NCBI GenBank assembly: GCA_000004985.1
Contig: GG738886.1
Source of the DNA: Naegleria gruberi
Taxonomy: Eukaryota
Direction: 5' to 3' (one strand)
Length of the DNA stretch: 64,000 bases
Shown: one piece after another, positions 4,638 to 30,089 of the stretch
Position numbering within the stretch: position 1 is the first letter of the stretch
Layout of the letters: every line of letters starts with the position of its first letter
Notes under the pieces: generated by a model
What the model was told of the DNA's origin: nothing
Database searches by the model: none
Seen by the model: only the letters and a program-made list of their open reading frames with translations
Program-made: the position numbers and the translations under genes

Positions 4638-7600
4638 ATGCCACAAGATAAAAGTGAACTTGACTGTGGTAAAGTACTTACTAATCAGGATAGTGGTGTT
4701 GGGTTTAGCACTATCAATACTAGTCCCCCGCATCAACAGTCGAGCGATTGTATTTCTAACATGAAGGAAAACCTAATTCCGGAGGTGAAGAATAATGATG
4801 AATTATCTGCATCATCTATTACTCTTGCTGTTCCGAACATTGATTGTGGAAGTAATACGACAAAGATGCCAACAACAAGTACTCTCGTTGTGGATGATAT
4901 CATTAAAAATAGGAGGAATATTGATGATAAAAGGTCTCTTGAAAATCGAGGAACGAGAACAGCCAGCCTGTCAATGCCAACAACTAATTATTTATTTCCA
5001 TCATCAAAAAGTAACTTAATTCCAATATTACCAAAAACTAAGGATCAGGAAAAGGAGAAAATGCAGAAAAACAAACTAACTTTTCAAAATTCGAGAAATT
5101 CTCTTTTTCAAAACTCTAACAAAACAACTTACACAAAAGTTGAAATGAACAAACAATCTAACGATAAGAGAGGACAAACGAAAATAGATCACCAACCCAA
5201 AAATCTAGAATTGCCCTCATTAGCATCAATTGTTTTAACACCAAATACTCCTAACTCGGTATCTAATGTCAATATTGAAACAGACGAATCAGAAATTAAC
5301 CCAATACTGGAATCAGTACCATTCTTTATATTTTTAAAAATTGGAATACTCAAGGAAAACTCAGAACCTAAATATTTAGAGGCTTATAGGGCTCTTTCTC
5401 AACAAAATCTATTCTTTATGACCTCTTGGTTTAGGTATTTTGGGATATATTTTGTTTTAGTATTTTTAACAATGTACAAGCTTGTCGGGATGCGAACAAT
5501 CTCTAGCTCTGTACTTTGCAACTTTTGCAGTGGAGGTTTTTAGTAATCTTTATCTGAATTATTTAACATGCTGTAAATCTCCAACTAGGGCAAGGAAGAA
5601 TGTAATTCATTTATGCAGAACAGTTCTGTCAACCTCTTATGGATTCATAATGCAAATGTATTACACTAAGCTATCCATATATATATTGACAATACTCAAA
5701 TTAATAATTTCTTGTCATATTTTTGGAGACCATCTTATCACCTCCTTAATATCTACAGTAATTTTCGTATCTGGTTCGCTTATTCCAATGATGATTTTGG
5801 GGTATCCAATAGAATCTATAGTAAGCAACGGGATAGTAATGACTTCCATAGCCATTATGTGCTTGTTCTTTTCAAAAATATATGCAGAAGAAAAAAGATA
5901 TCATTATAAACAAAGGTTTGCTTACATGCAGGAAAAGTATTTGAGCAATGAGAAAACTCACATGATTGCAAATATTTCACATGAAGCAAGGTATGTATTA
6001 CCAGTATCAGTTCGAATTAATTCAAATTCACATTTTGGAATTGTTTTAATTATTCCTATGTAGAAATCCATTGCATGGTATTATTGGAGCTTCAACAATT
6101 TTGAGACATGATATGGAAAAGAACAGTCATTCAGATAAAAGAAAAAAAAGAGGAAGAAAGAACAGCATTTTACAATCACCTTCTCATTCACCAATGAATG
6201 CAAAGAAAGGATTCTTACATGTTTCAAATGATGATGGACACTATTCGAGTGATTGTGAATCTTCATGTGGAGATTCAACAGCTGAACAACCGTATCTTGA
6301 ATTGGTGAATGATATTTATAATAATGCCAATTTGTTACTTCACATTTTCAGTACTTCACTTCAAATGACAAGTCTCGAAATGGGAAATATCAAATTGAAG
6401 AATGAACCATTCAATTTATTGGACACAATTGAATCAGTAATTTCAGTATTTTATAATATTGCAGCAGACAAGAATGTTTCACTTCACAGTTTTATTAATT
6501 TAAATTCTCTTCCAAACCAAGTGATAGGTGACCACGTTAGAGTTTCTCAAATATTAATGAACTTTGTGTCAAACTCTATCAAATATTCATCTAATGAGCA
6601 AGGAGAGAGTTCAGTAATTCTCAAGTGTGATATTTGTTCAGATGAAGAGCTCAAAAAGTTGAATGTTGAAAAAGAAAAAATAATTGAAATGTTAGACGAT
6701 AAGGAGGACATTGTTTTCGTTAAAATTGATTGTATTGATAATGGAAAAGGAATTGAAAAGGATAATATCAACAAGTTATTTAAAGCATTCCAAACTTTTG
6801 ATTTGAAATCAGCAAGTAACATGGACACAGGTGGAACAGTATTTGATCAATACTATTTGAAATCAATTTCAGGTAATACAAAAGGATCGAATGGAACGAG
6901 TTTACTATTGAGTAACAGAACAGGAGTTGGATTGAATATTAGCAAGCAACTTATTGAGAAGATGAAAGGATCTATTATAGTTAGCAGCGAAATAGGTAAA
7001 GGCACGACAATGTCTGTAATATTTCCTTTAAAGATAGCACCAACTCAATCTGCACAAAATCAAAGACTTGAAGAACTTAGTATAGATTTAGAAGATTTCA
7101 ACGTATTAATTATTGACAATGATGCACTCTTTTTGGATATAATGAAGGACTATGTTGCTCATATTTGTGCTAAAACTACGGTTACCACTGTTATAGACCC
7201 GAAAAGTATTACGGATATTGATGAGTCAAAACCATTGGTAGTAATTTATTCTGAACATCTCCATGCAGAAGTGAAACAAATCCTAAAATTGGTTTCTGTA
7301 GAAAAGATATTGATACCCATTGGATTGAGAGGAAGGACTAGAAAATATGCAACTATGAAGTATATTATCAAACCTGTAAAGGTTGACGATATGATAAGCG
7401 TATTGAACGAAAAACTCGACAAGCAAAAGAAGAAGATTAATTGTCAAAATATTATTACTCCACCTCCAGAGATAAATATCACAACTGATAATGTTCCAAC
7501 TATAGAGGTAGTAATACCAGAACCTGTACCTTCTAAACGAATACTGATAACAGATGATAATTTAATTAACAGAAAAGTGATGGAAAAGATGGTTCGATTG

Positions 7601-7915
7601 TTGGGATTTACTGAAGTTGATTGTGCATCGAATGGATTGGAATGTTTTGAAATGTACAAACAAAAACAATATTCAATCATTTTATTGGACTTGTTGATGC
7701 CAGTCATGTGTGGCAAGCAGAGTGTGAAACATATTCGAGAATTTGAAGAGAGTGAAGGAAGAAAACGAACACCAGTAATTGCCATCACTGCCAACATTTG
7801 GGAATCAGTTGATACTCTCTCACAACTTGGATTTGACTCTGTCATTTACAAACCAATCCTTATTGAAAAATTGAGGGAGGAAGTTGAACGGTTAACGCAA
7901 GAAAGCAACTCATAG
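4638..7915 (+). CDS. hybrid histidine kinase, copy 1 (HisKA H-box + HATPase_c + pseudo-receiver + C-terminal receiver domain)
   Basis: Low-complexity N-terminus, then TM segments. H-box ISHEA-R/NPLHGIIGAS is split by a 73-nt GTATGT..TAG intron (5991..6063), with the Arg codon split ag|a. N-box LMNFVSNSIKYS, G1 IDNGKGI, F FKAFQ, G2 GVGLNISKQLIEKMKGSIIVSSEIGKGTT. Receiver has ITDDN..., LLDLLMPVMCG (phospho-Asp) and YKP. Reading frame changes by +1 near 5470..5490 relative to copy 2 (ORFs 4638..5543 and 5482..6063 overlap). Confidence 0.85.
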
Positions 7916-12201: not shown

Positions 12202-14709
12202 ATGATTCAAGAGCACTTAAACGGCGACTCCACCTCTGTGGAAAGAACCGTTTTCCAACAAGATTCCTCACCCATCCGTCTTCGTTCATTAAAACCAAGT
12301 CACCAACTTTCTCCTTCGTATAAATCACCAAAATCACAAACACCTTCAAAAACTAAACTTTCACAATCTCCTCCACCTTCATCGAACAGTAAGAGAATGA
12401 TGAGAGCAAATCATGCTCGCTGTCAAGCTTTTGAAAAATCTCCAGATTTGCGAATGCAAAAAGTTTCACATGATAAGGAAAATCAAGAAATGGACATTAG
12501 TCCACATAATAACGAAACTATTCTTTCACCACCCAAGTTGGTGTTGAGTAAATCGAATTCTGGATTGAGAAAGCCACTGAGTCCAATTTCTCCTCAAATG
12601 ATGGAAGATTCTCCATTGGAAAATATTAAACGAAAGACACCTAATCGTTATTCACCTTATTTATTGAAATCTGTATTGAAGAATGCAAATTCACCACGAA
12701 ATGTTTCACCACTCGTTCGTAACAGTGCTACCTTTAAGAGAAAATCACCACACAATCGATCTACTCCAAATAATTATTCGAAACATTCGAATGATCCTAA
12801 TAGAATGAGTGAATCACCAGATGCAGACTGTATCCAATTAGAAACTCCACCTCACATCCTCCAACAAGAAGACAATAAGAAATTCATTGGTGAACAAAGT
12901 ACCATCCGTGTGAAACCAATCCAATTCCAAGCTCCAACCTCAAGTGCCAACGAACCATTCTCACCAATTGCCCAAACTAATCACATTCCACAACAAGCAA
13001 CATCTTCCACATTCAGATCACCATTCAAAACTCCAAGTTACATTAAAAAGAGACAAGCTCTTGCTGAGGATTTGGGAATGGCCTTTGAGGATAGTTATTC
13101 CAGATCTGCAAAGAAGAATGCTACCACTCAAAATCCACTTAAAAATCCATTCACACCAAATAGTTTTAAACAAATTAAGGTAATTCCTGATAAGGCATTT
13201 AGAATGATGGTTGGAAATACAGCTCAACAACAAGTGGTTGAAGAACCTAAAAAGAAGAAATCAATCATTCGTTCAATGAGAGATTATAGAAAGAATAAGA
13301 AGGAATCACTGAAAAGTAAATTGAGAGGTGATAGTCCACCTAAGGATTATTCCTCATCTACTGATTCATTAAAGAAGAGTAGATCTCCTGCCAGAAAGAG
13401 AAAGTTTGATGAAACTGAAGAAGAAATTCAAGGAGGTGCCACAGTTTTAAGTAATTTGGGTGTTCTCATTGATCAGTCAACTGTAACCAGTTCAGCACCA
13501 GTAGCCAACACTAACCAAAATGATTTCATGATTGCAGCAGATATCGAAATTGAAAGTGATGGAGAAGATGTTGTCATTGAAGAATTGGAACATGCAGCAT
13601 GTGAATCACCAACTAAGAAAATCAAATCAGAACAAGGTAGACCACTTTGGAGTAGATTAAAGAAGGCTCTCACAAAGAAGAAATCAAATCCAGAAGAAGA
13701 CGATGAAGAATCCAAACAACCAAAGAATACACTCAGAAGAAAGCTCTCTAAAAAGGGTCTTCAAGCATTCAGATCTAATCAAGTTCAACAAGTGCAAAAT
13801 AACTTGTCAAATCCTAATTTACTATCAACTCAAGATTTCAATAATGAAGGTCCACTGAGAAAACAAAGAAGTTTTGGAGAAAATTATTTTTCCTCAATGG
13901 TTCATGGAAGAAAGCAACAACAACAACAAATGGAAGAACAATCAGCTGATTTACACAATATTTCATTTGACGAAACTGATTTAAACAAACACAAGAATCG
14001 TCAATTCCAACTTCAAGATGATTTACAAGAACAATTTTTGAATAATATGAAAATGGTCAAACATACTGATTCTAATTTAAAGTCCTCATTCACTAACAAT
14101 ACAACCATTGCTGCCACTACTAACGAATGTGTGAAAAATTTCAAAATTCCATCACTCAATTTGAAGAATGTACCAACTTTACAATTAGCTCCAAAAGAAG
14201 AAAAGCCAACTTTCACATATTCTTTCGTTGAGATTATTAACACTCCACATCATAGAGAATACTTTACAAAACATTGTATTAATGAGTACAATTCAGAAAA
14301 TATTGAATTTTGGTGTGCTGTCAGATTAGAATATTCCTATTTAAGAGATAGATCACAAAGATATCAAATGGCTATCAAACTTCTCAATGAATACGTTGAT
14401 TTATCAAGTGATAAGGCATTAAACATTGATAAGAAATCCATTCTTCAAGTCAAGACAAGAATCAATGACGAAACTGATGACCTCTCTGATTTATTCGATT
14501 CCATTACTAACCATGTAGAAACTGTAATGATGGACTCTTTCAAGAGATTCCAACTCCTTCCAATCTACCAGGAAATGATTGCTCACCACAAAACCATCAT
14601 CTCTGAGAATAACAAGACAGATTTGGATACTCCTAGAGGAACCAACTTTAAGAATAAGATGTTTAGTTTCCTTTCTCCAAAAGGTCTCATCAAACAACAA
14701 CATGATTAA
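12202..14709 (+). CDS. RGS-domain protein with long Ser/Pro/Asn-rich low-complexity N-terminus
   Basis: 835-aa ORF. C-terminal RGS domain (FVEIINTPHHREYFTKHCINEYNSENIEFWCAVRLEY...MMDSFKRFQLLPIYQEM). Confidence 0.8.
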   Translation: MIQEHLNGDSTSVERTVFQQDSSPIRLRSLKPSHQLSPSYKSPKSQTPSKTKLSQSPPPSSNSKRMMRANHARCQAFEKSPDLRMQKVSHDKENQEMDISPHNNETILSPPKLVLSKSNSGLRKPLSPISPQMMEDSPLENIKRKTPNRYSPYLLKSVLKNANSPRNVSPLVRNSATFKRKSPHNRSTPNNYSKHSNDPNRMSESPDADCIQLETPPHILQQEDNKKFIGEQSTIRVKPIQFQAPTSSANEPFSPIAQTNHIPQQATSSTFRSPFKTPSYIKKRQALAEDLGMAFEDSYSRSAKKNATTQNPLKNPFTPNSFKQIKVIPDKAFRMMVGNTAQQQVVEEPKKKKSIIRSMRDYRKNKKESLKSKLRGDSPPKDYSSSTDSLKKSRSPARKRKFDETEEEIQGGATVLSNLGVLIDQSTVTSSAPVANTNQNDFMIAADIEIESDGEDVVIEELEHAACESPTKKIKSEQGRPLWSRLKKALTKKKSNPEEDDEESKQPKNTLRRKLSKKGLQAFRSNQVQQVQNNLSNPNLLSTQDFNNEGPLRKQRSFGENYFSSMVHGRKQQQQQMEEQSADLHNISFDETDLNKHKNRQFQLQDDLQEQFLNNMKMVKHTDSNLKSSFTNNTTIAATTNECVKNFKIPSLNLKNVPTLQLAPKEEKPTFTYSFVEIINTPHHREYFTKHCINEYNSENIEFWCAVRLEYSYLRDRSQRYQMAIKLLNEYVDLSSDKALNIDKKSILQVKTRINDETDDLSDLFDSITNHVETVMMDSFKRFQLLPIYQEMIAHHKTIISENNKTDLDTPRGTNFKNKMFSFLSPKGLIKQQHD

Positions 14710-16748: not shown

Positions 16749-18704
16749 TTATTTGATAATCTTTTCAGCAGCTTCCTTAATCTTACCCAAACGGCTTTGA
16801 ATATAAGCCATTCTGAGAGTCTTATCTCTAGCTAAGAAAGGTCTAGCACTGACAGCAAATTGGAAACGAGGATTAAGTTGTCTAGCAATACCTTCGACAA
16901 CGACAGTACTGATGACAAGTGTAGAGAAAGTAGATTCAATAGGAACACGATATTGTCTACCAAGAGTCAACACAGTTTCCATAACCTTACCAACTTGAAT
17001 TTCTTCAATTGGCTTATCCAAAACGAATGTAATAAGTTCAGCCATTTCCTTCTTGAATTTTTCAGCATTTTCTGGTGTCAAAGAATAACCAGTATTTTCA
17101 CGAAGCTTTCTAGAACGTTCAATCATCAATTGAGCAGCATAATAACCTTCACCTCTGATAATAGCAGAGAAGAGATCAATAAAGTTTTGACGATCTTCTG
17201 ATGACAATTGAGTAACCATACCAGCATCCAAAACAACCAACATTGGCTCATTGGTTTCCTTGTTAATTCTAACCATCAAATTACCAGGGTGCAAATCAGC
17301 ATGGAGCAAGTTGTCATGCAACATCATCTTTAAGAAAAGGTCGGTACCAAGTTCGGCAACACGATGTCTTTGGTTGGTTTGTTGAAGTCTTTGTTGTTCC
17401 TTTTCATCAATTTCTCCTTCAACTTCTCTACTAACAGGTTTGTTGCCCTTTTCATGAACAAGTTCATCTAAAATTTGTTCTGGTTTTGGAACAGGATTTG
17501 GGATTGAAATTTCACGATCAATACGAGCTTGATCCAAATAATGTTGAATAGAAATACCAGGTTCAAAACTTTCAATAAGAATGCTTGGAGTATAGAAATA
17601 TGGAGTTGGGAAAATGATAGTAGACTTAAAGTCTTGGAAGTTCTTTTGGAAGGCCTTAAGATTTTCACCTTCAAATCGGAAGTTGGTTTGAAGTTTCATA
17701 CACTTTGTAAATTCTTTAACATTTTCTTGAAGTTGCAACCAACCCAATGATGGAAGGAATCTACTAGTCAAAACACAGAACAATTCCAAAATCTTTAAAT
17801 CTTGAAGAATTTGTGTTTCAACATAAGGATGTCTAACCTTGATGGCAACATCCTTGATTTCTTCCTTCTTTGTGTGATCATTAAATCTCTTCATTTTGCC
17901 TCTGTAAACTTGACCAATAGCACCACTTGCCAAAGGATGGTTACTATCAATCCAAGTAATGATATCTTCATCTTTTCCTTCTCTCTTACGATATTGATCA
18001 TTAACAAGTTGTTTAACGTTTTTAACATGATGTTTTGGAGCATTAGAGTGGAGAGCAGCAAAGTGTTTACAAATGTGAGGATCGAGTAAATCAGCTCTTG
18101 TTGAAAGCCATTGTGAGAATTTGATGAAACAAGTACCTCCGTCCTTCAAACTTTGAACAACACGCATAAAGAATGCTTCATCAAGATCCTTTTCAGCCTT
18201 GTCCAACATTTCTGCTCCATTTTCAAATTTAATCCTAGTGTATAAAAATCTATAGAAAGGCTTTAGGATGAGATAATGCCACATTGAATAGAAAACGAGT
18301 GGTGAAAAGATGGTAATAATTTCATTCAAACGTTGTCCAATATGAATTAAATAGTAAATACGATGGAAAAGAGAGTGAGTAAATCTATCATATAATAATT
18401 GACCATATTTGTCGCTGTTGATGAGTGTTGGTGTATCAAAGGCATGTTCAGGAACTGCAGGAGGTTGTGCTTCTTCTGATTTTGGTCCAAATAACAAATT
18501 CAACCATCTACTCTTTCTACGGATGACTCCAAGTTCTTCTTCGGTTTCCTTTTCGTAAGCCTTAGCAACAGCTCCAACTGTAAGAGCTGAACCAACTACC
18601 ACTGAACCAATTAGAAATTTTCTACCATATCCACTACTTTTGGCAGCTTCAGCAGTTGTCTTTAATGGTTGTTGCACACCACGACGAAGGAGGTGCTTCC
18701 ACAT
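16749..18704 (-). CDS. ABC1/ADCK (UbiB/Coq8-like) atypical protein kinase, probably mitochondrial
   Basis: ORF 16749..18770. The track start is TTG, so I use the first ATG at 18704 (MWKHLLRRGV.., presequence-like). ABC1 motifs: FIKFSQWLSTRADLL, ASGAIGQVYRG, VAIKVRHP, LHADLHPGNLMV. Confidence 0.85.
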   Translation of the reverse strand: MWKHLLRRGVQQPLKTTAEAAKSSGYGRKFLIGSVVVGSALTVGAVAKAYEKETEEELGVIRRKSRWLNLLFGPKSEEAQPPAVPEHAFDTPTLINSDKYGQLLYDRFTHSLFHRIYYLIHIGQRLNEIITIFSPLVFYSMWHYLILKPFYRFLYTRIKFENGAEMLDKAEKDLDEAFFMRVVQSLKDGGTCFIKFSQWLSTRADLLDPHICKHFAALHSNAPKHHVKNVKQLVNDQYRKREGKDEDIITWIDSNHPLASGAIGQVYRGKMKRFNDHTKKEEIKDVAIKVRHPYVETQILQDLKILELFCVLTSRFLPSLGWLQLQENVKEFTKCMKLQTNFRFEGENLKAFQKNFQDFKSTIIFPTPYFYTPSILIESFEPGISIQHYLDQARIDREISIPNPVPKPEQILDELVHEKGNKPVSREVEGEIDEKEQQRLQQTNQRHRVAELGTDLFLKMMLHDNLLHADLHPGNLMVRINKETNEPMLVVLDAGMVTQLSSEDRQNFIDLFSAIIRGEGYYAAQLMIERSRKLRENTGYSLTPENAEKFKKEMAELITFVLDKPIEEIQVGKVMETVLTLGRQYRVPIESTFSTLVISTVVVEGIARQLNPRFQFAVSARPFLARDKTLRMAYIQSRLGKIKEAAEKIIK

Positions 18705-19613
18705 TTTTTTTATCGGCTTTTTTGTTTGCACATTTGCGTTGAAGAGATTCAAAAGCCCTGTTTCACTCAATCTTTGTTAATTGTGCGTTAAATTGGAATA
18801 TTAGATAATCATCATGATTGAATTTTATTAATACTATCATATTCTACTATCAAAATTGATGAGGAGAGTTTTTGATTTATTTGAAGCATAGATGACGTAT
18901 TCAAGTATTAAAAATACACAACTAAGAGATTGAATGTTCTTGCTCAATGCACATTTTCCTCTTCTTGATGTTACCGATTGCATTCCCCTCAAGACAACAA
19001 AATTGATTGACTATTAGACAACAACGAGATAAATGATTCTTTTGTTGTTGTAAAATAACAAGGAGTCAGACGAGCTGCTAAATTGTCTACAGGTATAATT
19101 CTGTTACTACAATAACGGAAAAGAAAGCATTCATCATTAACGCAATCATTCAATTATTCTCTCTATTTTGATTGACTTTATCATCTTTGAATGAAATTGT
19201 GGTTTTTCATTTTTAATAAAAATAATTTCAAAAAATTATTTTACACCTTAACCTTTTTCGTTTTCATTTGAAGCCTTCCAAAAGAACAATTCACAATTTG
19301 AATGGCTTCATTGTCATAGTACTTACTAATGAACCTTAAAATTTTCAAGTTTGTTTGTTTGGAATATTACAATACGATTAAATTAACAATAAAAAATTAA
19401 CTATCAGTCATCCATCATTTCAAACTATTTAACCGGTTCAATATTGAATCGTCCCAAATTGTTATTTTACAATAAATTCATCTCTCTATTACATCAACAC
19501 AATAAACTTGTCCCAAATTCAAATCATAACTCAATCCATGTAAGCAGCCAGCGATAAACTATATTCATAACCCAGGGCTTTGTATTTTTCAAATGTCACC
19601 AGCACTATAAAAA
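18705..19613. promoter_or_regulatory. ~0.9-kb divergent intergenic/promoter region between ABC1 kinase (-) and Sec7 gene (+)
   Basis: Longest non-coding interval in this compact window. No ORF with any recognisable domain. AT-rich with T/A runs. Confidence 0.35.
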
Positions 19614-22600
19614 ATGTCAATCAGACAAAAACTCTTCCCTCAGCGAAAGCGAATGTCTGGTATTTTTGAATCAGAGCACTCGCCAACTGACGTGGACAGC
19701 CTAAAGAAAAATAGACGAGTTTCGAACGCTTCAGATATGATGTTGAGTCATCCTCCAATCGATCAGCACACCTCCAACCTTCTCAACACTAGTCTCTGTA
19801 ATAATCCCTCCATGTCAGAAGATTCACTCTCTCGAAAAGTTACCATTGGATCATCGACTTGTATTGATAGTAGTACTGGTAGCAGCGAGGTTGATTCATC
19901 ACCAAATAATAATGGTAATACACTCGATATCAAGAGCAGTAGAGGGAAACAAGAGCAATCATCCACAGTGATGATCGCTACTGCTCCTCCTGCTGGTTCT
20001 GATGCGGTAAATGATGATGTTGCTTCTTCTGGCTCATCCAAAAACAGCCTAAAAAACGAAGAGAAAAATGCTTCATTGTTGCCACAACAAGACTCATCAT
20101 CAACAAGTATAAAATCGGACTCATCTTCTCTCAATAACAACAACAATAATAATAATATTAGCAATAATAGTTCAGTATCATCATCATCATCCGCCTCAGT
20201 AGTAGATAATATTGAAGACGATATGACAAAAAACAGATCACTCACATATGCTGTTGGTGATTCCAAATTTAAGGGAATTGGCCCTAATGATGTTAAATCA
20301 CCACAATCACAGAATGCTACTACAGTTTCAACCTTTCTTACCGATGAACAACCATCTACTATTTCTCCAACAACTGCTATGAATAATAGATTCCAAGGAA
20401 TCAGTTCAAAAGACGCCAAACCTACAACCACAACAAGTACTACATCCCAACCAAAGCATGCTAATCCTCCACCAATACAAACAACATCATCCGTATCAAA
20501 TAATGGTAAATCATCAACTCCTACAAATAACAAGCCAGCATCATCAAAACCAGTAGAAAAACCAAGAGTTTCTCAAGACCTTTCAAGAGAAGCAGCTTTA
20601 AAGAAGAAAGCAACAGGAAAAAGCTTAACAATGCCATCTTCATCACAAAACAAAATTGTAGTGATTGGTTGTAGAGGTATTGGTAAATCCGAAATGGTGT
20701 ACAAGTTTTTACACAATGAAATTCGTTTTTATCATCAATTAAAGAAAGATAAGGCTCATCTACTTGAAGAACTTAAAGGTACTTTGGCTTCCGAACAAAA
20801 GACTATTAACGAGAAAAAAACACAATCAGCGTCCAACCAACAGAATGCTACTACCACACCAACAAATAATTTACCATCATCATCGACATCATGCACAATA
20901 ACACCTAAAACTGAACCTTCTCCAACAAAAGTTCAAGACAATTTACCAATAGATCCAGGTGCAATAGTGGAAAATGAAATTGAGTGTGCTCTCAAACCAT
21001 CAGACTCTTTAGAAGTTAGAAAACTGAAATTACTTTTAATGAAGAAAGACCAAGAAATTAAAAAACAAAAAGAAGAAATGGAAAATACCATTCAAGAACT
21101 TTCAAGTATGTGGAAAAAGGAGAGAACAGAAAAGGTCGAACTTGAAGAAGAGTATGTCGAAAAGGAAAATGAGTTGAATCATTATATTTCAGTTGTTGAA
21201 CAGATTCATCACTTGATTAATTTGGATCCAAAGTCAGATGAAATTCCAGAAGCAATTTCTTTCAAACTTCCTGAAAATCCTAATAATGGAATTTTGAGTC
21301 CAAACAGAAAGAGAAAGACCAGTGCCCATGCTGGAGTTATTGCTGCAACACCAAAACAAAATTTATCAACACTTCCACCATCTACTCCAAATGTTGTAAC
21401 ACCAATGAATAATAGAAATAGTCACAATAATAACCACAACGACGACTTCTTTGATCTCCAAAACTTCAACCCTAAAGACCCTGTACCAGTAACACCAATG
21501 TCTTCCCAAAGAAAGGCAAGACATGTCAGAACGGAAAGTACTTTCCAAAAGCTAAGAACAAACCAATATCAAGTTGTTGCTCAAGATTTAAGAAAATCAA
21601 TTGAAGAAGATATTGACGCAGATGTTTCTGATCCAGAAACAAACAGCATTGCTTTAGCTGCAAACGAAACTGATGAGACCACGGACGAAATTAACATGTT
21701 CTTGGCAGATTTTAATAGAACCGAGGAATCCAATTTTGTATTGACAAACAATCCATCCATGAATAGAATTCAAGCTCCACAAGTGAAGAATTCCCTTTCC
21801 AATTCGGAAGATAGTGCTGGAGATGAAGATACCGAGAATGATTATTCAGAAAGTAGTGATATTACTTCTGTTTCATCAACTGCTAGTTCTAACCATTCCC
21901 TTGTTAAAGCTCAATCAACAATGGATGTAAGAGGTGATAGAGGACAACCAGTAGTAGCTAACAGTTTAATTTTACCAAATGTTGGAAAGTCAAAATCTCC
22001 AACAATTGTACAATCTACAGATTACAAGTATGACGAGAACTTGTTTGTAAAATTATTAACCCCAAGTTTCCACCTTACTGAGGGTTTGAGAAAGTTTAAT
22101 ACCGGTAAACCAAAAGATGCTCTCAAGTATCTGATAGAAAATGCAATTTTGCCTGATCCAGAAGCTGGGTTAACTGAAACTAAGGAAAAACCAGAGGCAG
22201 TAATTTCTAGATTTATGGCCATTGCTGATTCTTTGAATAAGGAAAAACTCGGAGAATTTTTGGGAGATGAAAGGAATAATGTCTATCTGGAAGAATTTGT
22301 CAGATTCCATGTTCAAGAGCTGTACAATGAAGAAAAGAAACAAGGTGATGACACTTATTTGAGCAAGTTTGATCGTGCTCTTCGTTCATTTTTCATTCAA
22401 TTCAAATTACCAAAAGAAGGACAACAAGTTACCAGAATTGCAGAGGTCTTTGCCAATGTGTATAGTGAAAATAACAAGAATGATGGAGAACTCAATGGTA
22501 ATGGTGATGCTTGCTATTTACTTGTATGTTCAATGCTCATGGTGAATACACAATTACACAATCCAATTGCGAATATCAAGTTATCGAGAGAGCAATTTGT

Positions 22601-23588
22601 AGAATTATTCTCACAATTCAAAGATATTAACATGAACTTTATTGGATCATGTTACGATACCATCGCAAGAAATGCTATGGTTCTCTATGATGAAGAAGTT
22701 GATTCTGAGGATAGAACAAATTTCGAGTCAGACGATCAGATCGATTTATTCTTCAAATGCTACAAACCAAGAGCAGCATTGCCAGCTTCAGCTAGTGATT
22801 CTCAAATAACAGTTCACAGAGCTATCAAATCTCTGAGTTTGGATGGAGACAAAGTTAAGGAATTGATGGAAAGTGCTATTACATTCTTCTTCAAAGCCAA
22901 AGTTATACATGATGGAGTCATTAATAGAATTCAAATCAAGGACTCTGATCCAAATCTCGAGTTAACAACCACAGAAACTATTACTGAGTCTGGTTTGACA
23001 ATAACAAAAGTCAAGCTCAGGGATCCAACAGAAATTAATAATGAGGCAAAGACTGGTAATTACTTTATCTGTGCTTATAGTGTTGCTGATCGCACAAGCT
23101 TTTTGATTGTTGAGCATATCATCAAAGCAATTAGAAAGGCCAAGAGAAGAGAAAGAAAGGCAGAAAAGAAGAAGAATAAGTCTTCCAAGACAAAGCCTCA
23201 ATATAGCACCTTAACTGGTTCAGTTACCGAGGAATTACTACAAATGCTCAATGGAGATGATAGTGACTACAATAATGACAAGTTTATGGTTCTTGTGGGC
23301 TGTAAAGCTGATGTTCCAGATGACCAAAGACAAGTTTCAAAGAAAGAAGGTGGTGAACTAGCTCTCAAGTACAGTATTCCATTCTTTGAAGTTTCTAATG
23401 GAGATATGTTTGGAATACGGAAAGTTTTCTTGAATGCTATCGATTCCATCAAGAGACAAAATGCTTCATACGTGGATGCAGTCAAACAAATGAATGACTT
23501 CCACAAGAGAATGAATATTGCAAAGCAAAACAAGAAAGGCCAAATAGATGTTAACTCTCTTGCTATACTGCCAAAGTGTTACATTTAA
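19614..23588 (+). CDS. Sec7-domain ArfGEF-like protein (1324 aa, single exon) with Ras-like GTPase motifs flanking the Sec7 domain
   Basis: Sec7 core: LSKFDRALRSFFIQFKLPKEGQQVTRIAEVF...CYLLVCSMLMVNTQLHNP (Glu finger present). A P-loop-like segment KIVVIGCRGIGKSEMVYKF lies ~aa 345. C-terminal to Sec7 are Ras-like G3-G5 segments: KTGNYFICAYSVADRTSF, MVLVGCKADV, FFEVSNGDMFGIRKVFLNAI. The N-terminus has long poly-Asn/Ser tracts. Confidence 0.85.
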   Translation: MSIRQKLFPQRKRMSGIFESEHSPTDVDSLKKNRRVSNASDMMLSHPPIDQHTSNLLNTSLCNNPSMSEDSLSRKVTIGSSTCIDSSTGSSEVDSSPNNNGNTLDIKSSRGKQEQSSTVMIATAPPAGSDAVNDDVASSGSSKNSLKNEEKNASLLPQQDSSSTSIKSDSSSLNNNNNNNNISNNSSVSSSSSASVVDNIEDDMTKNRSLTYAVGDSKFKGIGPNDVKSPQSQNATTVSTFLTDEQPSTISPTTAMNNRFQGISSKDAKPTTTTSTTSQPKHANPPPIQTTSSVSNNGKSSTPTNNKPASSKPVEKPRVSQDLSREAALKKKATGKSLTMPSSSQNKIVVIGCRGIGKSEMVYKFLHNEIRFYHQLKKDKAHLLEELKGTLASEQKTINEKKTQSASNQQNATTTPTNNLPSSSTSCTITPKTEPSPTKVQDNLPIDPGAIVENEIECALKPSDSLEVRKLKLLLMKKDQEIKKQKEEMENTIQELSSMWKKERTEKVELEEEYVEKENELNHYISVVEQIHHLINLDPKSDEIPEAISFKLPENPNNGILSPNRKRKTSAHAGVIAATPKQNLSTLPPSTPNVVTPMNNRNSHNNNHNDDFFDLQNFNPKDPVPVTPMSSQRKARHVRTESTFQKLRTNQYQVVAQDLRKSIEEDIDADVSDPETNSIALAANETDETTDEINMFLADFNRTEESNFVLTNNPSMNRIQAPQVKNSLSNSEDSAGDEDTENDYSESSDITSVSSTASSNHSLVKAQSTMDVRGDRGQPVVANSLILPNVGKSKSPTIVQSTDYKYDENLFVKLLTPSFHLTEGLRKFNTGKPKDALKYLIENAILPDPEAGLTETKEKPEAVISRFMAIADSLNKEKLGEFLGDERNNVYLEEFVRFHVQELYNEEKKQGDDTYLSKFDRALRSFFIQFKLPKEGQQVTRIAEVFANVYSENNKNDGELNGNGDACYLLVCSMLMVNTQLHNPIANIKLSREQFVELFSQFKDINMNFIGSCYDTIARNAMVLYDEEVDSEDRTNFESDDQIDLFFKCYKPRAALPASASDSQITVHRAIKSLSLDGDKVKELMESAITFFFKAKVIHDGVINRIQIKDSDPNLELTTTETITESGLTITKVKLRDPTEINNEAKTGNYFICAYSVADRTSFLIVEHIIKAIRKAKRRERKAEKKKNKSSKTKPQYSTLTGSVTEELLQMLNGDDSDYNNDKFMVLVGCKADVPDDQRQVSKKEGGELALKYSIPFFEVSNGDMFGIRKVFLNAIDSIKRQNASYVDAVKQMNDFHKRMNIAKQNKKGQIDVNSLAILPKCYI

Positions 23589-23797: not shown

Positions 23798-24994
23798 ATG
23801 AATAATCCGGATATTATTCATCAAGTATTAAACTTTTTAAACGATGGTTCCGAGGAGATGATCAAAGATTACATGTTGGTTTCTTCCGAGTGGATGAAGG
23901 CTGTTCGTAATTTAGATTTATTTATTGCAGTTTATCGGAAGAATATAAAGAAGGAACAAGTAGAATTAATGATGAAAAGTACTTGTTTGAAGAATTTGAC
24001 CAAGTTGACTATTAAATTTACTGATTTGGATGGGGTAAAGGCATTTTGTGATAATTTTGCCTTCGATAGATTGACTAGCTTGGCTGTGAACGATAGTAAA
24101 CTTGGAGTTGAAGGCGCCAAGTTGATTGCACAATGTCAAAAATTGAGTAATTTGAAAGAGTTGAATGTTAGTGTGTGTGATTTGCATTGTGAAGGTGCTC
24201 AAGTGATTGTTTCAAGTCCAGTGTTTAGCAAATTGACTAGTTTGGATCTGGGTTGGAATCAGATTAAAGATGAAGGCATAAAATCATTGGCAATGAGTGA
24301 ACACATGTCTAACTTGACTCAATTAGACCTCTATCTCAATCTATTTGGAGGAGATGGCTTATCAGCAATGGCTACTAGTCCATACCTGACTAATCTTACG
24401 GATCTGAAAATGGCAGAGCTATTTCTTGGTGAAGGAATTGATTCAATTTGTGATGGTAAATCCCTTTCTAATCTAACGAGATTGGATTTGACAGAAAATG
24501 ATTTATATGAAGGTGCCATTACTGCTTTGAATAAGAGCTTGACAAAGATTACTGATCTCAATTTAACTAAGAATAATATTGGAGATGAGGGAATTGAAAT
24601 ATTGGCCAACAGCAAGTTTGCATCCACTTTGAAAGTGCTCAATATTACTGACAATGTCCTCAACCCAGCATCTTTTAAAGCAATTTCAAATTCTCAATTC
24701 CTTTCCAATTTGGAAGTATTGAATGCCTCCTCGAATTTCAGAGTAAAGGATGAAGGAGCCAAACTCATTGCCAACAGTCCAACACTTTCAAATTTGACTG
24801 AACTCATTTTGGAGGATGACAGTATTGGAACTGAGGGAGCTTGCGCAATTGCCAATAGTCAGTATTTGACTAAACTGAAGAAATTGAATCTTTCATTTAA
24901 TAAGATTGATGAGGAAGGTGTGAAGGCAATTCAAAACATGAATATCCAAGCCAAAGTCGGTAACGACAAAGCTAAGGGTTGTCCACAGCAATAA
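23798..24994 (+). CDS. F-box-like / RNI-type leucine-rich-repeat protein
   Basis: 398 aa. N-terminal F-box-like segment (IIHQVLNFLNDGSEEMIKDYMLVSSEWMKAV), then ~12 ribonuclease-inhibitor-type LRRs (LSNLTQLDLYLN.., LTNLTDLKMAE.., ITDLNLTKNNIGDEGIEILA..). Confidence 0.8.
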   Translation: MNNPDIIHQVLNFLNDGSEEMIKDYMLVSSEWMKAVRNLDLFIAVYRKNIKKEQVELMMKSTCLKNLTKLTIKFTDLDGVKAFCDNFAFDRLTSLAVNDSKLGVEGAKLIAQCQKLSNLKELNVSVCDLHCEGAQVIVSSPVFSKLTSLDLGWNQIKDEGIKSLAMSEHMSNLTQLDLYLNLFGGDGLSAMATSPYLTNLTDLKMAELFLGEGIDSICDGKSLSNLTRLDLTENDLYEGAITALNKSLTKITDLNLTKNNIGDEGIEILANSKFASTLKVLNITDNVLNPASFKAISNSQFLSNLEVLNASSNFRVKDEGAKLIANSPTLSNLTELILEDDSIGTEGACAIANSQYLTKLKKLNLSFNKIDEEGVKAIQNMNIQAKVGNDKAKGCPQQ

Positions 24995-28211: not shown

Positions 28212-30089
28212 TTAAAAATCATTACACAATTTCAATATTTCCTTATCATTTCTCAAATCAATGGATGCATATTTCAGTGCACTCTTATTTTGTTTGACTG
28301 CAAATGAAACTATTCCTCTATCACTTCTGAGTTTTAAACACATTTCACGTAACAGATTGCCATCTCTTTTCACAACTCGAATCACAAATACTCTATCTGA
28401 GACCTTTAATTTACCAGCACTGTAGAATGCATTAATAGCATCAGTTTTTAACGCTTCCATCAAAATCTCTCTATCTATTTGATGTTTTCTTGGAAAATTT
28501 GGCAAATAATTCCCAGATTGTTTGACTAGTTTCTGAAAGCAAAATAGTCTGTCATTAATCAATCTTTTAGATATCTGACTAAAATTCAACATGACGTTTC
28601 AGCAGCTTTGAGAACAATTTGTTCATCATCCCAAAACTCTGCTGTGCAAGAATTGATTGCATCTCCATCTTGTGTGACTGCAGCCAAAACTATTTCTCTA
28701 TCTGTTTGAAATTGTTCACCAACATAATACAATATCTCACCACATCTTGTTACAGCTTGTAATACAAATTCTCTGTCTTGTTTAAATTCATTTGGGATTG
28801 CATTCATTGCTTCGTACAGATTAAAACATCCTGAGGATATTTTAATTGATTCCAATAATACCTCTCTGTCGTGTGTGAATTGATCTGGAATATTCTCCAA
28901 AGCAAAACCAGTCTTTGCAAATGATTGGATGAATTCAATGTCATTTCTCAATCTATCAGAAATATATGTAATGGCCAAACCAGAAGATTTGAGTGCCAAC
29001 TCAGCAATTTCCTTGTCATCTCTCAATTCAGTTGATGCAAATTGGAAACAGGACCAATTTTTCATAACAAGCATTTTCACAAATTCCTTATCATTTTTCA
29101 ATTCATCAGATGCGTGTTGAAAAGCTTGTGGATTTTGTTGAATAGCTTCCATAACAATCTCTCTATCATTTCTCAATTCCTTACACGCATATTCTAGTGC
29201 TTTCACACCGTCCAAATTTGATATTGTGAGCAGAAACTCTCTATCATTCGTAAATGCCCTACTTGCACTGTTAATTCTGGCAAGAGATTTTGAAAATGCT
29301 TTAAAAATCACATCTCTATCATTTCTCAATAATTGGGATGATTGAAAATATGCATTTGGCTTTGATTCTAGAGCTAGTAAGACAATTTCCTTATTATTTT
29401 GCAATTCTTTGGACGCAAACTCTAGGGCATCACCATTTTCTTGTACAGCAGTTCTAACTATTTCAATATCATTTCTAAATGTTTCAGATACAAATTTAAG
29501 AATTGGTCCCCAAGTACTAACAGCTGTCATTACAATTTCCCTGTTTCTTTTCAATTCTTCAGATGCGTACGAAAGAAAATGACCCTTATGTTGCACAGAA
29601 GTTTTTACAATTTCAAAATCATTTCTCAATTCTTCTGAGGCACATCTGATGCTTCCATTTTCCTTGACAGCTGCCATGACAATTTCTCTATCATTTCTGA
29701 AAACATCATCCACATAATTGAGTGTCTCAAGACCACTATACTCTGTTGTAGTCAAAACAAACGATCTATCCTTCCACAATCCAAATTTTCTAGCCAAAAT
29801 ATCAAATTTATCACAAGGCAAATCGAATATTTTGTCATGAATAAAAGTTCGATCTCTAATCAATCAATATTGGAAAATTAATTGGTTGATTTTCATTGTT
29901 AAATTCTTCTCCATGATCAAAAAACTCCCAAACAGAATCATCACTTCTCCCGAAACAATATTCAAGTATTGGTTTTAAAATGGTGTCGTGTTTGTCATTG
30001 GGTGGAATGTCTGCAATTTTTGTGGAGAGTAATTGGGAAGAGAGGGACAAATCTAAAAAACACTGATGGTTATTCTTCATCATTGGCAT
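28212..30089 (-). CDS. DUF4116-repeat protein (RNDREIV..A..NG.AL.YAS repeats), gene model interrupted by two frame changes
   Basis: Three overlapping minus ORFs (29856..30089, 28586..29863, 28212..28592) all continue the same ~25-aa repeat pattern. The junction at ~29859..29866 is a tandem ATCA|ATCA (tgat|tgat on the coding strand); removing one copy restores ...NFPILIRDRTF. The junction at ~28586..28595 needs a -1 shift (...AAETS/MLNFSQISKRLINDR). Confidence 0.65.

What the first reader, a model, noticed from the sequence alone, without database searches (positions are those of the whole stretch)
19614..23588. Sec7 ArfGEF domain embedded between halves of a Ras-like GTPase motif set
The 1324-aa single-exon protein has a canonical Sec7 domain with its Glu finger. 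It also has a good P-loop-like segment KIVVIGCRGIGKSEMVYKF about 750 aa upstream of the Sec7 domain. Ras-like G3-to-G5 segments lie downstream: KTGNYFICAYSVADRTSF (cf. RTGEGFLCVFAINNTKSF), MVLVGCKADV (cf. LVGNKCDL), FFEVSNGDMFGIRKVFLNAI. The DTAGQ switch II is degenerate (DPTEIN). A small GTPase split by a coiled-coil plus GEF insertion would be an unusual self-contained GEF-plus-GTPase-like module. The alternative is that two separate degenerate GTPase-like segments match by chance.
Basis: partly seen in the sequence, partly recalled or inferred. Interest (0 to 1): 0.6.

Follow-up and report, generated by a model that had tools for sequence, protein, structure and literature searches.

The report
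ArfGEF inserted inside a Ras-like domain
A Naegleria gruberi gene encodes an Arf-activating (Sec7) protein whose single Ras-like GTP-binding domain is written in two pieces about 715 residues apart, with the Sec7 domain and a coiled coil sitting in the gap, an arrangement conserved across heterolobosean amoebae and, as far as I could find, not described before.

Summary
Window 19614-23588 (+) is one 1324-aa ORF, identical to N. gruberi NAEGRDRAFT_80719. It has a canonical Sec7 domain (Pfam E 9e-36, Glu finger E935) and a Ras-family match in three collinear stretches.

Residues 346-370 match Ras beta1/P-loop/alpha1. Residues 1089-1283 match Ras beta2 to alpha5. The roughly 715 residues between them replace switch I, the site where G-alpha carries its helical domain.

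The same split layout occurs in Naegleria, Willaertia and Percolomonas and in two proteins of unknown origin. Each full-length member has exactly one Walker A motif, always upstream of Sec7. A family-only profile of the joined pieces hits KRas at E 1.5e-24 across the junction, and the N piece adds about 23 bits.

The P-loop lies about 455 aa upstream of Sec7, not 750. The G3 equivalent is IKD(1110)SDPN, not DPTEIN.

The G domain is Ras-like, not Arf-like. It lacks T35, G60 and Q61 equivalents and has Arg at position 12, so it probably binds nucleotide without cycling. Its role in controlling the GEF is inferred.

The parts
19614..23588 (+). Whole gene: single-exon ORF of 1324 aa plus stop (N. 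gruberi NAEGRDRAFT_80719)
19614..20648 (+). N-terminal Ser/Asn/Thr-rich, poorly conserved region (residues 1-345), low confidence in the model. It carries two conserved short motifs, [KR][FY][KQ]GI, at residues 218 and 259.
20649..20723 (+). G-domain N piece (residues 346-370, NKIVVIGCRGIGKSEMVYKFLHNEI): beta1, the P-loop/G1 GCRGIGKS (Arg354 at Ras position 12, K358, S359) and alpha1
   Evidence: Pfam Ras positions 1-24. Invariant in orthologues. Model pLDDT 92, DSSP strand plus helix. Adds about 23 bits.
20724..22877 (+). Insertion of about 715 residues (371-1088) that replaces switch I: helices, disordered linkers, the Sec7 domain and a short conserved helix (1078-1086) leading into beta2
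   Evidence: Alignments A3 and A4. Model secondary structure.
21009..21218 (+). Predicted 70-residue helix (residues 466-535), E/K/L-rich, probable coiled coil; conserved (MWKKERTEK...LE.EY) as far as the Percolomonas homologues
21510..21608 (+). Conserved basic helix RKARHVRTESTFQKLRTNQYQVVAQDLRKSIEE (residues 633-665); function unknown
   Evidence: (block 641-660 is 92% identical).
22071..22676 (+). Sec7 ArfGEF domain (Pfam residues 820-1021; the folded unit in the model spans about 808-1050)
   Evidence: Pfam E 9.4e-36. ARNO E 7e-16. Foldseek TM 0.78-0.80 to ARNO Sec7. Model pLDDT above 90.
22416..22418 (+). Catalytic Glu finger E935 (LPKEGQQV)
   Evidence: Aligned to ARNO E156. The motif LP.EGQQV is present in all family members that include this region.
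22878..23462 (+). G-domain C piece (residues 1089-1283): beta2 ITFFFKAKVI, beta3 VINRIQIKD with D1110 = Ras D57, degenerate G3 (DSDP, no Gly), alpha2, beta4 YFICAYS, alpha3, beta5 with G4 LVGCKAD (K1231, D1233), alpha4, beta6 with G5 EVSNG, alpha5
22956..23024 (+). Hairpin of about 20 aa inserted in switch II, specific to the Naegleria clade (residues 1115-1137); its end, RDPTE, was mistaken for DTAGQ
   Evidence: Absent in P0012, whose switch II has exactly Ras length. Strands E788-794 and E800-806 in the model.
23175..23279 (+). Insert of about 35 aa between alpha3 and beta5 (residues 1188-1222)
23463..23585 (+). Conserved C-terminal tail ending LPKCYI (residues 1284-1324). The Cys is at -3, so this is not a CAAX box.

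Best explanation
The gene encodes a heterolobosean ArfGEF in which one Ras-type G domain is encoded discontinuously.

Layout:
- Residues 346-370 supply beta1, the P-loop and alpha1.
- Residues 1089-1283 supply beta2 to alpha5.
- About 715 residues have been inserted at switch I: long helices (probable coiled coil), disordered linkers and a catalytically intact Sec7 domain.
- In the folded protein the two pieces come together, in cis or possibly in trans within a coiled-coil dimer. They form one Ras-like fold that closes the insertion into a loop.

Inferred from sequence:
- The domain can still bind a nucleotide. G1 is intact, the Asp57 equivalent is kept, G4 is CKAD (as in fungal Rho1), and G5 is EVSN.
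- It cannot cycle like Ras. It has Arg at position 12, no G60 or Q61 equivalent, a shortened and rebuilt switch II, and no switch I Thr.
- It therefore behaves as a pseudoGTPase-like regulatory or targeting module of the GEF, comparable in role to the G-like domain of AGAP ArfGAPs.

Inferred by analogy only: nucleotide occupancy bridges the two pieces, and so could set the position or accessibility of the Sec7 domain.

The Sec7 domain is expected to activate separate Arf-family GTPases, not its own G domain.
For: Shown by computation:
- Pfam Sec7 and Ras both score above their curated cutoffs, and Ras matches in three collinear stretches.
- The N piece matches Ras profile positions 1-24 and the C piece matches the rest. 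Spliced together they score 58.1 bits against 43.9 for the C piece alone.
- The spliced sequence aligns end to end with Rit1 and KRas.
- A family-only spliced profile hits KRas, RalA, Rit1 and Rap2 at E 1e-24 to 1e-22, with a single stretch running across the junction.
- The N piece contributes about 23 bits compared with deletion or shuffling.
- The split architecture is conserved in N. lovaniensis, a close relative of N. fowleri (P0154; the N. fowleri RefSeq model itself is truncated and lacks the N piece), Willaertia magna, Percolomonas cosmopolitus (a complete transcript) and two proteins of unknown origin. Each has one Walker A motif, upstream of Sec7.
- The N piece is a conserved island in divergent flanks.
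- The C piece has no P-loop of its own and begins exactly at beta2. D1110 equals Ras D57 and is near-invariant.
- The AlphaFold model with a 44-sequence alignment gives the N piece pLDDT 92, with a DSSP beta-strand whose only possible partners are strands of the C-terminal domain.
- CKxD as G4 occurs in bona fide Rho1 GTPases in the same alignment.
Against: - The docking of the two pieces appeared only when small-GTPase homologues spanning the split were in the alignment. With four orthologues alone the model was uninformative, with mean pLDDT 40. The model therefore shows compatibility and is not an independent test.
- No coordinates or PAE were available to me.
- An ad hoc HMM of 32 mostly Rho/Rab N termini scored the N. 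gruberi N piece at only 4.7 bits, although it scored P0011, P0007 and P0156 at 18-25 bits.
- Percolomonas-type members have lost NKxD and SAK (AVDFSED, SVHL) yet keep the P-loop, so guanine-specific binding cannot be general for the family.
- Nucleotide binding, lack of hydrolysis, GEF activity and any coupling between them are untested.
Confidence: 0.75

Rival explanations
1. Assembly in trans. The N piece of one chain completes the C piece of a partner chain, so the split G domain acts as a dimerisation clasp, with the coiled coil bringing the chains together as in Rad50/SMC heads. This is a variant of the best explanation rather than a contradiction of it.
For: Long conserved helices lie directly after the N piece (residues 371-404 and 466-535). 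The 715-residue tether permits either topology.
Against: Nothing here distinguishes cis from trans. The monomer model docks the pieces in cis, but it could not have shown trans assembly.
Confidence: 0.12
2. Two independent relics. An ancestral Ras-coiled-coil-Sec7-Ras protein lost most of its first G domain and the start of its second. The surviving P-loop segment now does something unrelated, such as binding phosphate or a partner protein, and the C-terminal domain is an incomplete pseudoGTPase.
For: Tandem Ras-Ras proteins exist (P0021). The first AlphaFold run did not dock the pieces. The N piece also weakly matches AAA-type P-loop profiles below cutoff.
Against: - A 25-residue beta-strand/loop/helix cannot fold alone, yet it is invariant in orthologues and kept in homologues about 25% identical.
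- The C piece starts exactly at beta2 and lacks the central beta1 strand of the sheet.
- The two pieces are exactly complementary and collinear with Ras.
- Such an origin would in any case be one route to the split domain.
Confidence: 0.08
3. Self-contained GEF-GTPase pair. The Sec7 domain exchanges nucleotide on the G domain of its own polypeptide.
For: Only the physical linkage of a GEF and a G domain.
Against: - The G domain is Ras-type, with no Arf-family profile match at E<=10. The best structural and sequence neighbours are Di-Ras, Ras, Ral, Rit and Rab.
- It has no switch I, and switch II is degenerate and carries an insert.
- From established Sec7-Arf complex structures (for example 1R8Q and 1RE0), Sec7 binds switch I and II and relies on the Arf interswitch toggle.
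Confidence: 0.03
4. Chance. The P-loop-like segment is a fortuitous Walker A match in a long low-complexity protein.
For: The N piece alone is below Pfam's gathering score (16.9 bits, E 0.005). One ad hoc HMM gave 4.7 bits.
Against: - Conservation island.
- Presence in every full-length family member, at the same position relative to Sec7.
- About 23-bit contribution in register.
- No other comparable match in the six-frame translation of the 64-kb window.
Confidence: 0.01

Closest known systems
Heterotrimeric G-protein alpha subunits (helical-domain insertion)
   Same: A Ras-like G domain interrupted between alpha1 and beta2, at switch I, by an inserted domain (established knowledge of G-alpha structure). 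The insertion site here maps to Ras residues of about 27-36.
   Different: The G-alpha insert is a helical lid of about 120 aa, and switch I (Arg/Thr) and G3 are kept. Here the insert is about 715 aa, contains an independent catalytic domain (Sec7) and disordered linkers, and switch I, G60 and Q61 are lost. There is no sequence relationship to G-alpha. The nearest relatives are Ras, Ral, Rit and Di-Ras.
AGAP1-3 (ArfGAP with GTPase-like domain, ANK repeats and PH domain)
   Different: AGAPs are GAPs, not GEFs. Their G-like domain is contiguous and N-terminal. They belong to a different lineage (metazoan). No orthology is implied.
Rad50/SMC-type split P-loop ATPase heads
   Same: The Walker A piece and the rest of the nucleotide-binding domain are separated by hundreds of residues that include long coiled-coil helices, and they reassemble into one domain (established knowledge).
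   Different: They are a different P-loop class (ABC ATPase, not the TRAFAC/Ras-like GTPase class). The insert is an antiparallel coiled coil with a hinge or hook, not a catalytic GEF. This is an analogy only.
Cytohesin/ARNO-type Sec7 domains and lineage-specific ArfGEFs (TBS, ARCC) of Pipaliya et al. 2019 (PMC6727740)
   Same: The Sec7 domain is closest in sequence and fold to cytohesin/ARNO and BIG Sec7 domains. As in TBS (TBC-Sec7), Sec7 is combined with a domain from another GTPase system in a non-opisthokont lineage.
   Different: There are no PH, HUS/HDS, TBC or ankyrin domains. The Sec7 lies inside a G domain. This architecture does not appear among the domain layouts the main text of that survey lists, in the passages I read. 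Its supplementary tables were not available.
PseudoGTPases and non-cycling small GTPases (Rnd, RGK/Gem, p190RhoGAP pG domains; PMC5593906)
   Same: A G fold with an incomplete catalytic motif set, embedded in or acting on GTPase regulators. GEM and the p190RhoGAP N-GTPase domain are structural matches.
   Different: Those domains are contiguous. Here G1 is intact while G2 and G3 are lost, and nucleotide binding is untested.
Circularly permuted GTPases (YlqF/YjeQ type) and engineered insertions (LOV2-in-Rac1, 5hzh)
   Different: Circularly permuted GTPases reorder the motifs (G4-G5-G1-G2-G3) without a large insert. The LOV2-in-Rac1 protein is artificial and its insertion is at another loop.

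Membership tests
Sec7-domain ArfGEF | Sec7 domain profile match above the curated threshold | tested here: met
   PF01369, 123.6 bits against a cutoff of 22, positions 4-182 of 183. PDB ARNO E 7e-16.
Sec7-domain ArfGEF | Catalytic glutamate finger in the FG-loop motif | tested here: met
   E935 in FKLPKEGQQVTR aligns with ARNO FRLPGEAQKIDR. It is conserved in all family members that cover this region.
Sec7-domain ArfGEF | Sec7 all-helical fold | tested here: met
   Model pLDDT above 90 over the domain. Foldseek TM 0.75-0.80 to ARNO, cytohesin-1, BIG1 and Sec7p.
Sec7-domain ArfGEF | Nucleotide-exchange activity on an Arf-family GTPase | not testable with these tools
   Needs a biochemical assay.
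Ras-superfamily small GTPase (PF00071 type) | Profile match above the curated threshold | tested here: met
   49.6 bits against a cutoff of 21.6, three stretches. Family profile against KRas E 1.5e-24.
Ras-superfamily small GTPase (PF00071 type) | G1 / P-loop GxxxxGK[ST] | tested here: met
   GCRGIGKS at 352-359. There is one per full-length family member. Position 12 is Arg, not Gly.
Ras-superfamily small GTPase (PF00071 type) | G2 / switch I threonine | tested here: not met
   Switch I is replaced by the insertion of about 715 aa. No conserved Thr aligns with T35.
Ras-superfamily small GTPase (PF00071 type) | G3 DxxG(Q) | tested here: not met
   D1110 (= D57) is kept, but the motif is DSDP, with no G60 or Q61 equivalent.
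Ras-superfamily small GTPase (PF00071 type) | G4 [NT]KxD | tested here: inconclusive
   The motif is CKAD (K1231 and D1233 kept, Asn replaced by Cys). CKxD also occurs in fungal Rho1 sequences in the same alignment. It is lost in Percolomonas-type members.
Ras-superfamily small GTPase (PF00071 type) | G5 SA[KL] | tested here: inconclusive
   EVSNG/EVSNH: Ser is kept and Ala is replaced by Asn.
Ras-superfamily small GTPase (PF00071 type) | Complete G fold (six-stranded sheet with beta1 central) | tested here: met
Ras-superfamily small GTPase (PF00071 type) | Contiguous domain of about 170 aa with a C-terminal lipidation motif (CAAX, CC or CXC) | tested here: not met
   The domain is split by about 715 aa. 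The C terminus is LPKCYI with Cys at -3.
Ras-superfamily small GTPase (PF00071 type) | GTP binding and hydrolysis cycle | not testable with these tools
   Needs biochemistry. The sequence predicts binding without canonical hydrolysis.
Arf/Arl/Sar family (the natural Sec7 substrates) | Arf profile (PF00025), N-terminal amphipathic helix, interswitch toggle | tested here: not met
PseudoGTPase (G fold lacking catalytic competence) | G fold with loss of residues needed for hydrolysis or switching | tested here: met
   By sequence only: R354 at position 12, and no T35, G60 or Q61 equivalents.
PseudoGTPase (G fold lacking catalytic competence) | Demonstrated absence of GTPase activity | not testable with these tools
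   Needs an assay.

The most novel reading that the evidence does not exclude
The split G domain is a nucleotide-gated intramolecular (or dimer-forming) clasp. GTP binding bridges the P-loop piece and the base-binding piece. Because the whole Sec7 module hangs from what used to be switch I, clasp closure or opening directly sets ArfGEF activity or membrane access. That would be a one-polypeptide link from a Ras-like nucleotide sensor to Arf activation, built by a natural domain insertion of the kind protein engineers make artificially.
Probability: 0.15. Interest if true: 0.8.

Novelty: new variant of a known kind. Interest (0 to 1): 0.6.

Why it matters
Small Ras-like G domains are treated as compact, contiguous units of about 170 residues. 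G-alpha is the classic natural exception, with a modest helical insert. This family shows that the fold tolerates a roughly 715-residue insertion at switch I that carries another catalytic domain, and that evolution has kept this layout across deep heterolobosean divergence.

If the two halves associate in a nucleotide-dependent way, the family would be a natural example of allosteric control by domain insertion, and an unrecognised way to regulate an ArfGEF.

There are also practical consequences:
- Domain-based annotation sees only 'Sec7 plus partial Ras' and misses the P-loop.
- The N. fowleri RefSeq model is truncated and lacks it.
- The family adds a lineage-specific ArfGEF class to surveys of the Arf system in a group that includes a lethal human pathogen.

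Tried and rejected
- AlphaFold on residues 330-1324 with only the four orthologues gave mean pLDDT 40 and no usable G domain. I discarded this model.
- A word-indexed homologue search with the C piece alone returned nothing, not even the protein itself. I treated this as an index limitation, not as evidence.
- An ad hoc HMM of the first 26 residues of 32 retrieved GTPases scored the N. gruberi N piece at only 4.7 bits. That HMM was dominated by Rho/Rab GDGxxGKTCLL sequences, so I replaced it with the Pfam result and the family-profile control.
- The afdb50 library was unavailable.
- Eight literature searches found nothing on this protein or on a naturally split Ras-like domain. The supplements of the ArfGEF survey were not held.
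- I considered that ITFFFKAKVI might be a substitute beta1 inside the C piece and rejected it. It aligns with Ras beta2 (SYRKQVVI), most clearly in P0012 (SYRNRFII), and is followed by a tight turn and beta3.
- I considered a CAAX lipid anchor and rejected it, because the Cys is at -3.


Full report
**What is there**

Window 19614-23588 (+) is one open reading frame of 1324 codons. Its product is identical over its full length to the N. gruberi hypothetical protein NAEGRDRAFT_80719, which carries precomputed Pfam hits to Sec7 and Ras. The window has about 34% G+C and is densely packed with ORFs whose products match eukaryotic signalling and repeat families.

Pfam finds:
- Sec7 at residues 820-1021 (E 9.4e-36).
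- The Ras family PF00071 at 49.6 bits (cutoff 21.6), in three separate stretches.

The Sec7 domain aligns with ARNO, cytohesin and BIG1. It has the catalytic glutamate, E935, in FKLPKEGQQV.

**The two G-domain pieces**

I scanned the pieces separately against Pfam:

| Query | Ras profile region | Score |
|---|---|---|
| Residues 343-402 | positions 1-24 | 16.9 bits, E 0.005 |
| Residues 1072-1324 | the remainder | 43.9 bits |
| Both joined | whole profile | 58.1 bits |

The joined sequence aligns end to end with Rit1 and KRas in the PDB. Aligning the joined pieces of all family members with HRas, Rap1 and a protist Ras gives this map:

| Ras element | Residues here | Sequence or note |
|---|---|---|
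| beta1 / P-loop / alpha1 | 346-370 | NKIVVIGCRGIGKSEMVYKFLHNEI |
| beta2 | 1089-1098 | ITFFFKAKVI |
| beta3 | 1102-1110 | VINRIQIKD; D1110 = Ras D57, near-invariant |
| beta4 | 1150-1156 | YFICAYS |
| G4 | 1230-1233 | CKAD |
| G5 | 1261-1263 | SNG |

The gap therefore falls at switch I (Ras residues of about 27-36). From established knowledge, this is where G-alpha subunits carry their helical domain.

RDPTE closes a roughly 20-residue hairpin that the Naegleria clade has inserted into switch II. In the relative P0012, switch II has exactly the Ras length. The P-loop is also about 455 residues upstream of Sec7, not 750. It is about 740 residues upstream of beta2.

**More than chance**

- Among the N. 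gruberi, N. lovaniensis and Willaertia magna orthologues and an environmental one, the N piece is invariant (NKIVVIGCRG[IV]GKSEMV.KFL.NEI). The 20-residue blocks around it are only 18-35% identical.
- An exhaustive profile search of 1.8 billion representatives found further members with the same order of parts. These are P0007, the Percolomonas cosmopolitus protein P0156 (a complete transcript), P0008 from an unknown organism, and fragments P0011, P0012 and P0155.
- These members are only about 25% identical to the Naegleria protein in the G pieces. Even so, every full-length member has exactly one GxxxxGK[ST], always upstream of Sec7, and none in the C piece.
- A profile built from the joined pieces of family members only, with no Ras sequences, hits KRas at E 1.5e-24. 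RalA, Rit1 and Rap2A score at about 1e-23 to 1e-22. One alignment stretch runs across the junction (profile 3-121 against Ras 4-118).
- That profile scores HRas at 77.9 bits. It scores HRas without residues 1-36 at 53.8 bits, and HRas with a shuffled N terminus at 52.8-55.1 bits. The N piece therefore adds about 23 bits in register.
- Orthology of the environmental copy is supported by a conserved upstream ABC1/UbiB kinase gene.

**Structure**

- With four orthologues only, AlphaFold gave nothing useful, with mean pLDDT 40.
- I then built a 44-row alignment of family members plus 32 small GTPases retrieved with the family profile. MAFFT placed the GTPase N termini on residues 347-370 and their beta2 onward on residue 1088 onward.
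- With this alignment the model reached mean pLDDT 65.5. The Sec7 domain and most of the G domain scored above 90. The N piece scored 92, as a DSSP beta-strand (346-352) followed by a helix (358-367).
- All other strands in the model lie in residues 1090-1259, so the beta1 strand must pair with them.
- The C piece corresponds to at most about 131 residues of Ras. Such coverage therefore requires the N piece to sit in the beta1/P-loop/alpha1 position.

Caveat: the alignment that produced this model already encoded the correspondence. The model shows that the split sequence is confidently compatible with one G fold. It is not an independent proof, and I had no coordinates or PAE.

**What kind of G domain**

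- The nearest relatives are Ras, Ral, Rit, Rap and Di-Ras, and then Rab. No Arf profile matches.
- G1 is intact, but position 12 is Arg in the Naegleria clade and in P0011, Ser in the Percolomonas type, and Ala in P0008. It is never Gly.
- Asp57 is kept. Gly60 and Gln61 are absent, and switch II is rebuilt. No Thr35 equivalent is conserved.
- G4 is CKAD. The same Cys variant occurs in bona fide fungal Rho1 proteins in my alignment.
- G5 is SN[GH].

From established knowledge of Ras, G12R and the loss of Q61 abolish hydrolysis, and G60 and T35 sense the gamma-phosphate. I therefore infer that the domain may still hold a nucleotide and Mg2+ but cannot switch or hydrolyse canonically.

Percolomonas-type members have also lost NKxD and SAK while keeping the P-loop. 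Phosphate binding, not guanine recognition, appears to be the conserved feature. I cannot explain this further.

**How it most likely works**

- Shown by computation: one polypeptide, a catalytically equipped Sec7 domain, and a Ras-type G fold whose first 25 residues are encoded about 740 residues upstream of the rest, conserved across Heterolobosea.
- Inferred: the pieces co-fold, closing the insertion into a loop, and the G domain serves as a non-cycling regulatory, targeting or assembly module for the ArfGEF. The G-like domain of AGAP ArfGAPs and the pseudoGTPase domains of p190RhoGAP (PMC5593906) are comparable.
- Speculative: a bound nucleotide would bridge the P-loop (N piece) and the base-binding motifs (C piece), and the Sec7 module hangs from the former switch I. 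Nucleotide occupancy could therefore gate the GEF. The coiled coil could also make the assembly occur in trans, giving a dimer clasp as in Rad50/SMC.
- Unlikely: the Sec7 domain acting on its own G domain. That domain is not Arf-like and lacks the switch surfaces that Sec7 domains bind.

**Comparison with what is known**

Eight literature searches found no description of this protein or of a naturally split Ras-like domain. The pan-eukaryotic ArfGEF survey (PMC6727740) describes GBF1, BIG, cytohesin, EFA6, IQSEC7 (BRAG), FBX8, TBS and ARCC. In the main-text passages I read, this layout does not appear among the domain architectures it lists. Its supplementary tables were not available.

I file the protein as a Sec7 ArfGEF, since the sequence, motif and fold criteria are met. 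Its G part is a Ras-superfamily-derived, pseudoGTPase-like domain that fails the G2, G3, contiguity and lipidation criteria of a canonical small GTPase.

**Verdict**

The finding is real and the main interpretation is right. The motif map needs correcting, and the 'self-contained GEF-GTPase pair' reading should be dropped. It is a new architectural variant, a Ras-like G domain split at switch I by an ArfGEF-bearing insertion. It is restricted, as far as seen, to Heterolobosea and two unplaced sequences, and its mechanism is untested. Interest 0.6.

Noticed in passing
window 20265-20279 and 20388-20402 (residues 218-222 and 259-263): Two copies of a short motif, [KR][FY][KQ]GI (SKFKGI..ND and NRFQGISSKD), are conserved in all five Naegleria/Willaertia orthologues inside an otherwise divergent low-complexity N-terminal region. 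It may be a repeated docking motif.
   Followed up: partly
P0005 / P0154 (Naegleria fowleri FDP41_003600; no window coordinates): The N. fowleri RefSeq/GenBank model is only 609 aa and starts inside the insertion, so it lacks the P-loop piece. A 1569-aa ENA member of the same 90% cluster has the full architecture, so the N. fowleri gene model is probably truncated.
   Followed up: partly
window 23463-23585 (residues 1284-1324): The C-terminal tail is highly conserved and ends LPKCYI, with Cys at -3, which is not a CAAX box. The relative P0155 ends LPICYID (Cys at -4), and the Percolomonas-type members end FYVK or FYVQ. A conserved hydrophobic-Tyr-[IV] C terminus of unknown role.
   Followed up: partly
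window 16749-18770 (-) and locus L001 983-2950 (-): An ABC1/UbiB atypical kinase gene lies upstream of, and divergent from, the Sec7 gene both in the window and in the environmental orthologue's contig. This is conserved synteny.
   Followed up: yes
window 19763-20533 (-): A 256-aa antisense ORF overlaps the Ser/Asn-rich 5' part of the gene. Its translation is low-complexity (poly-L, poly-D, poly-V), so it is most likely a by-product of the sense strand's composition and not a gene.
   Followed up: no
window 28586-29863 (-): A 425-aa ORF made almost entirely of nine DUF4116 repeats (Pfam E 4e-111).
   Followed up: no
window 6071-7915 (+), 12202-14709 (+), 23798-24994 (+): The neighbourhood is rich in signalling genes: a hybrid histidine-kinase-like protein (HATPase_c plus receiver), an 835-aa RGS-domain protein, and an RNI-type LRR_6 protein immediately downstream of the Sec7 gene. 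There is no evidence of a functional link.
   Followed up: no
family members P0007 / P0156 (Percolomonas type): These keep a perfect P-loop (GTS[SA][VI]GKT) but have lost NKxD (AVDFSED, AIDFNDD) and SAK (SVHL, SVCI). After alpha1 they also retain 'SDPY' / 'NDPY', which resembles the Ras switch I 'YDPT'. This hints that the ancestral insertion point lay just after G2.
   Followed up: partly
tool behaviour: The word-indexed protein search with residues 1072-1324 returned no hit at all, not even the parent protein that the full-length query had found. Negative results from that tool should be read with care.
   Followed up: no
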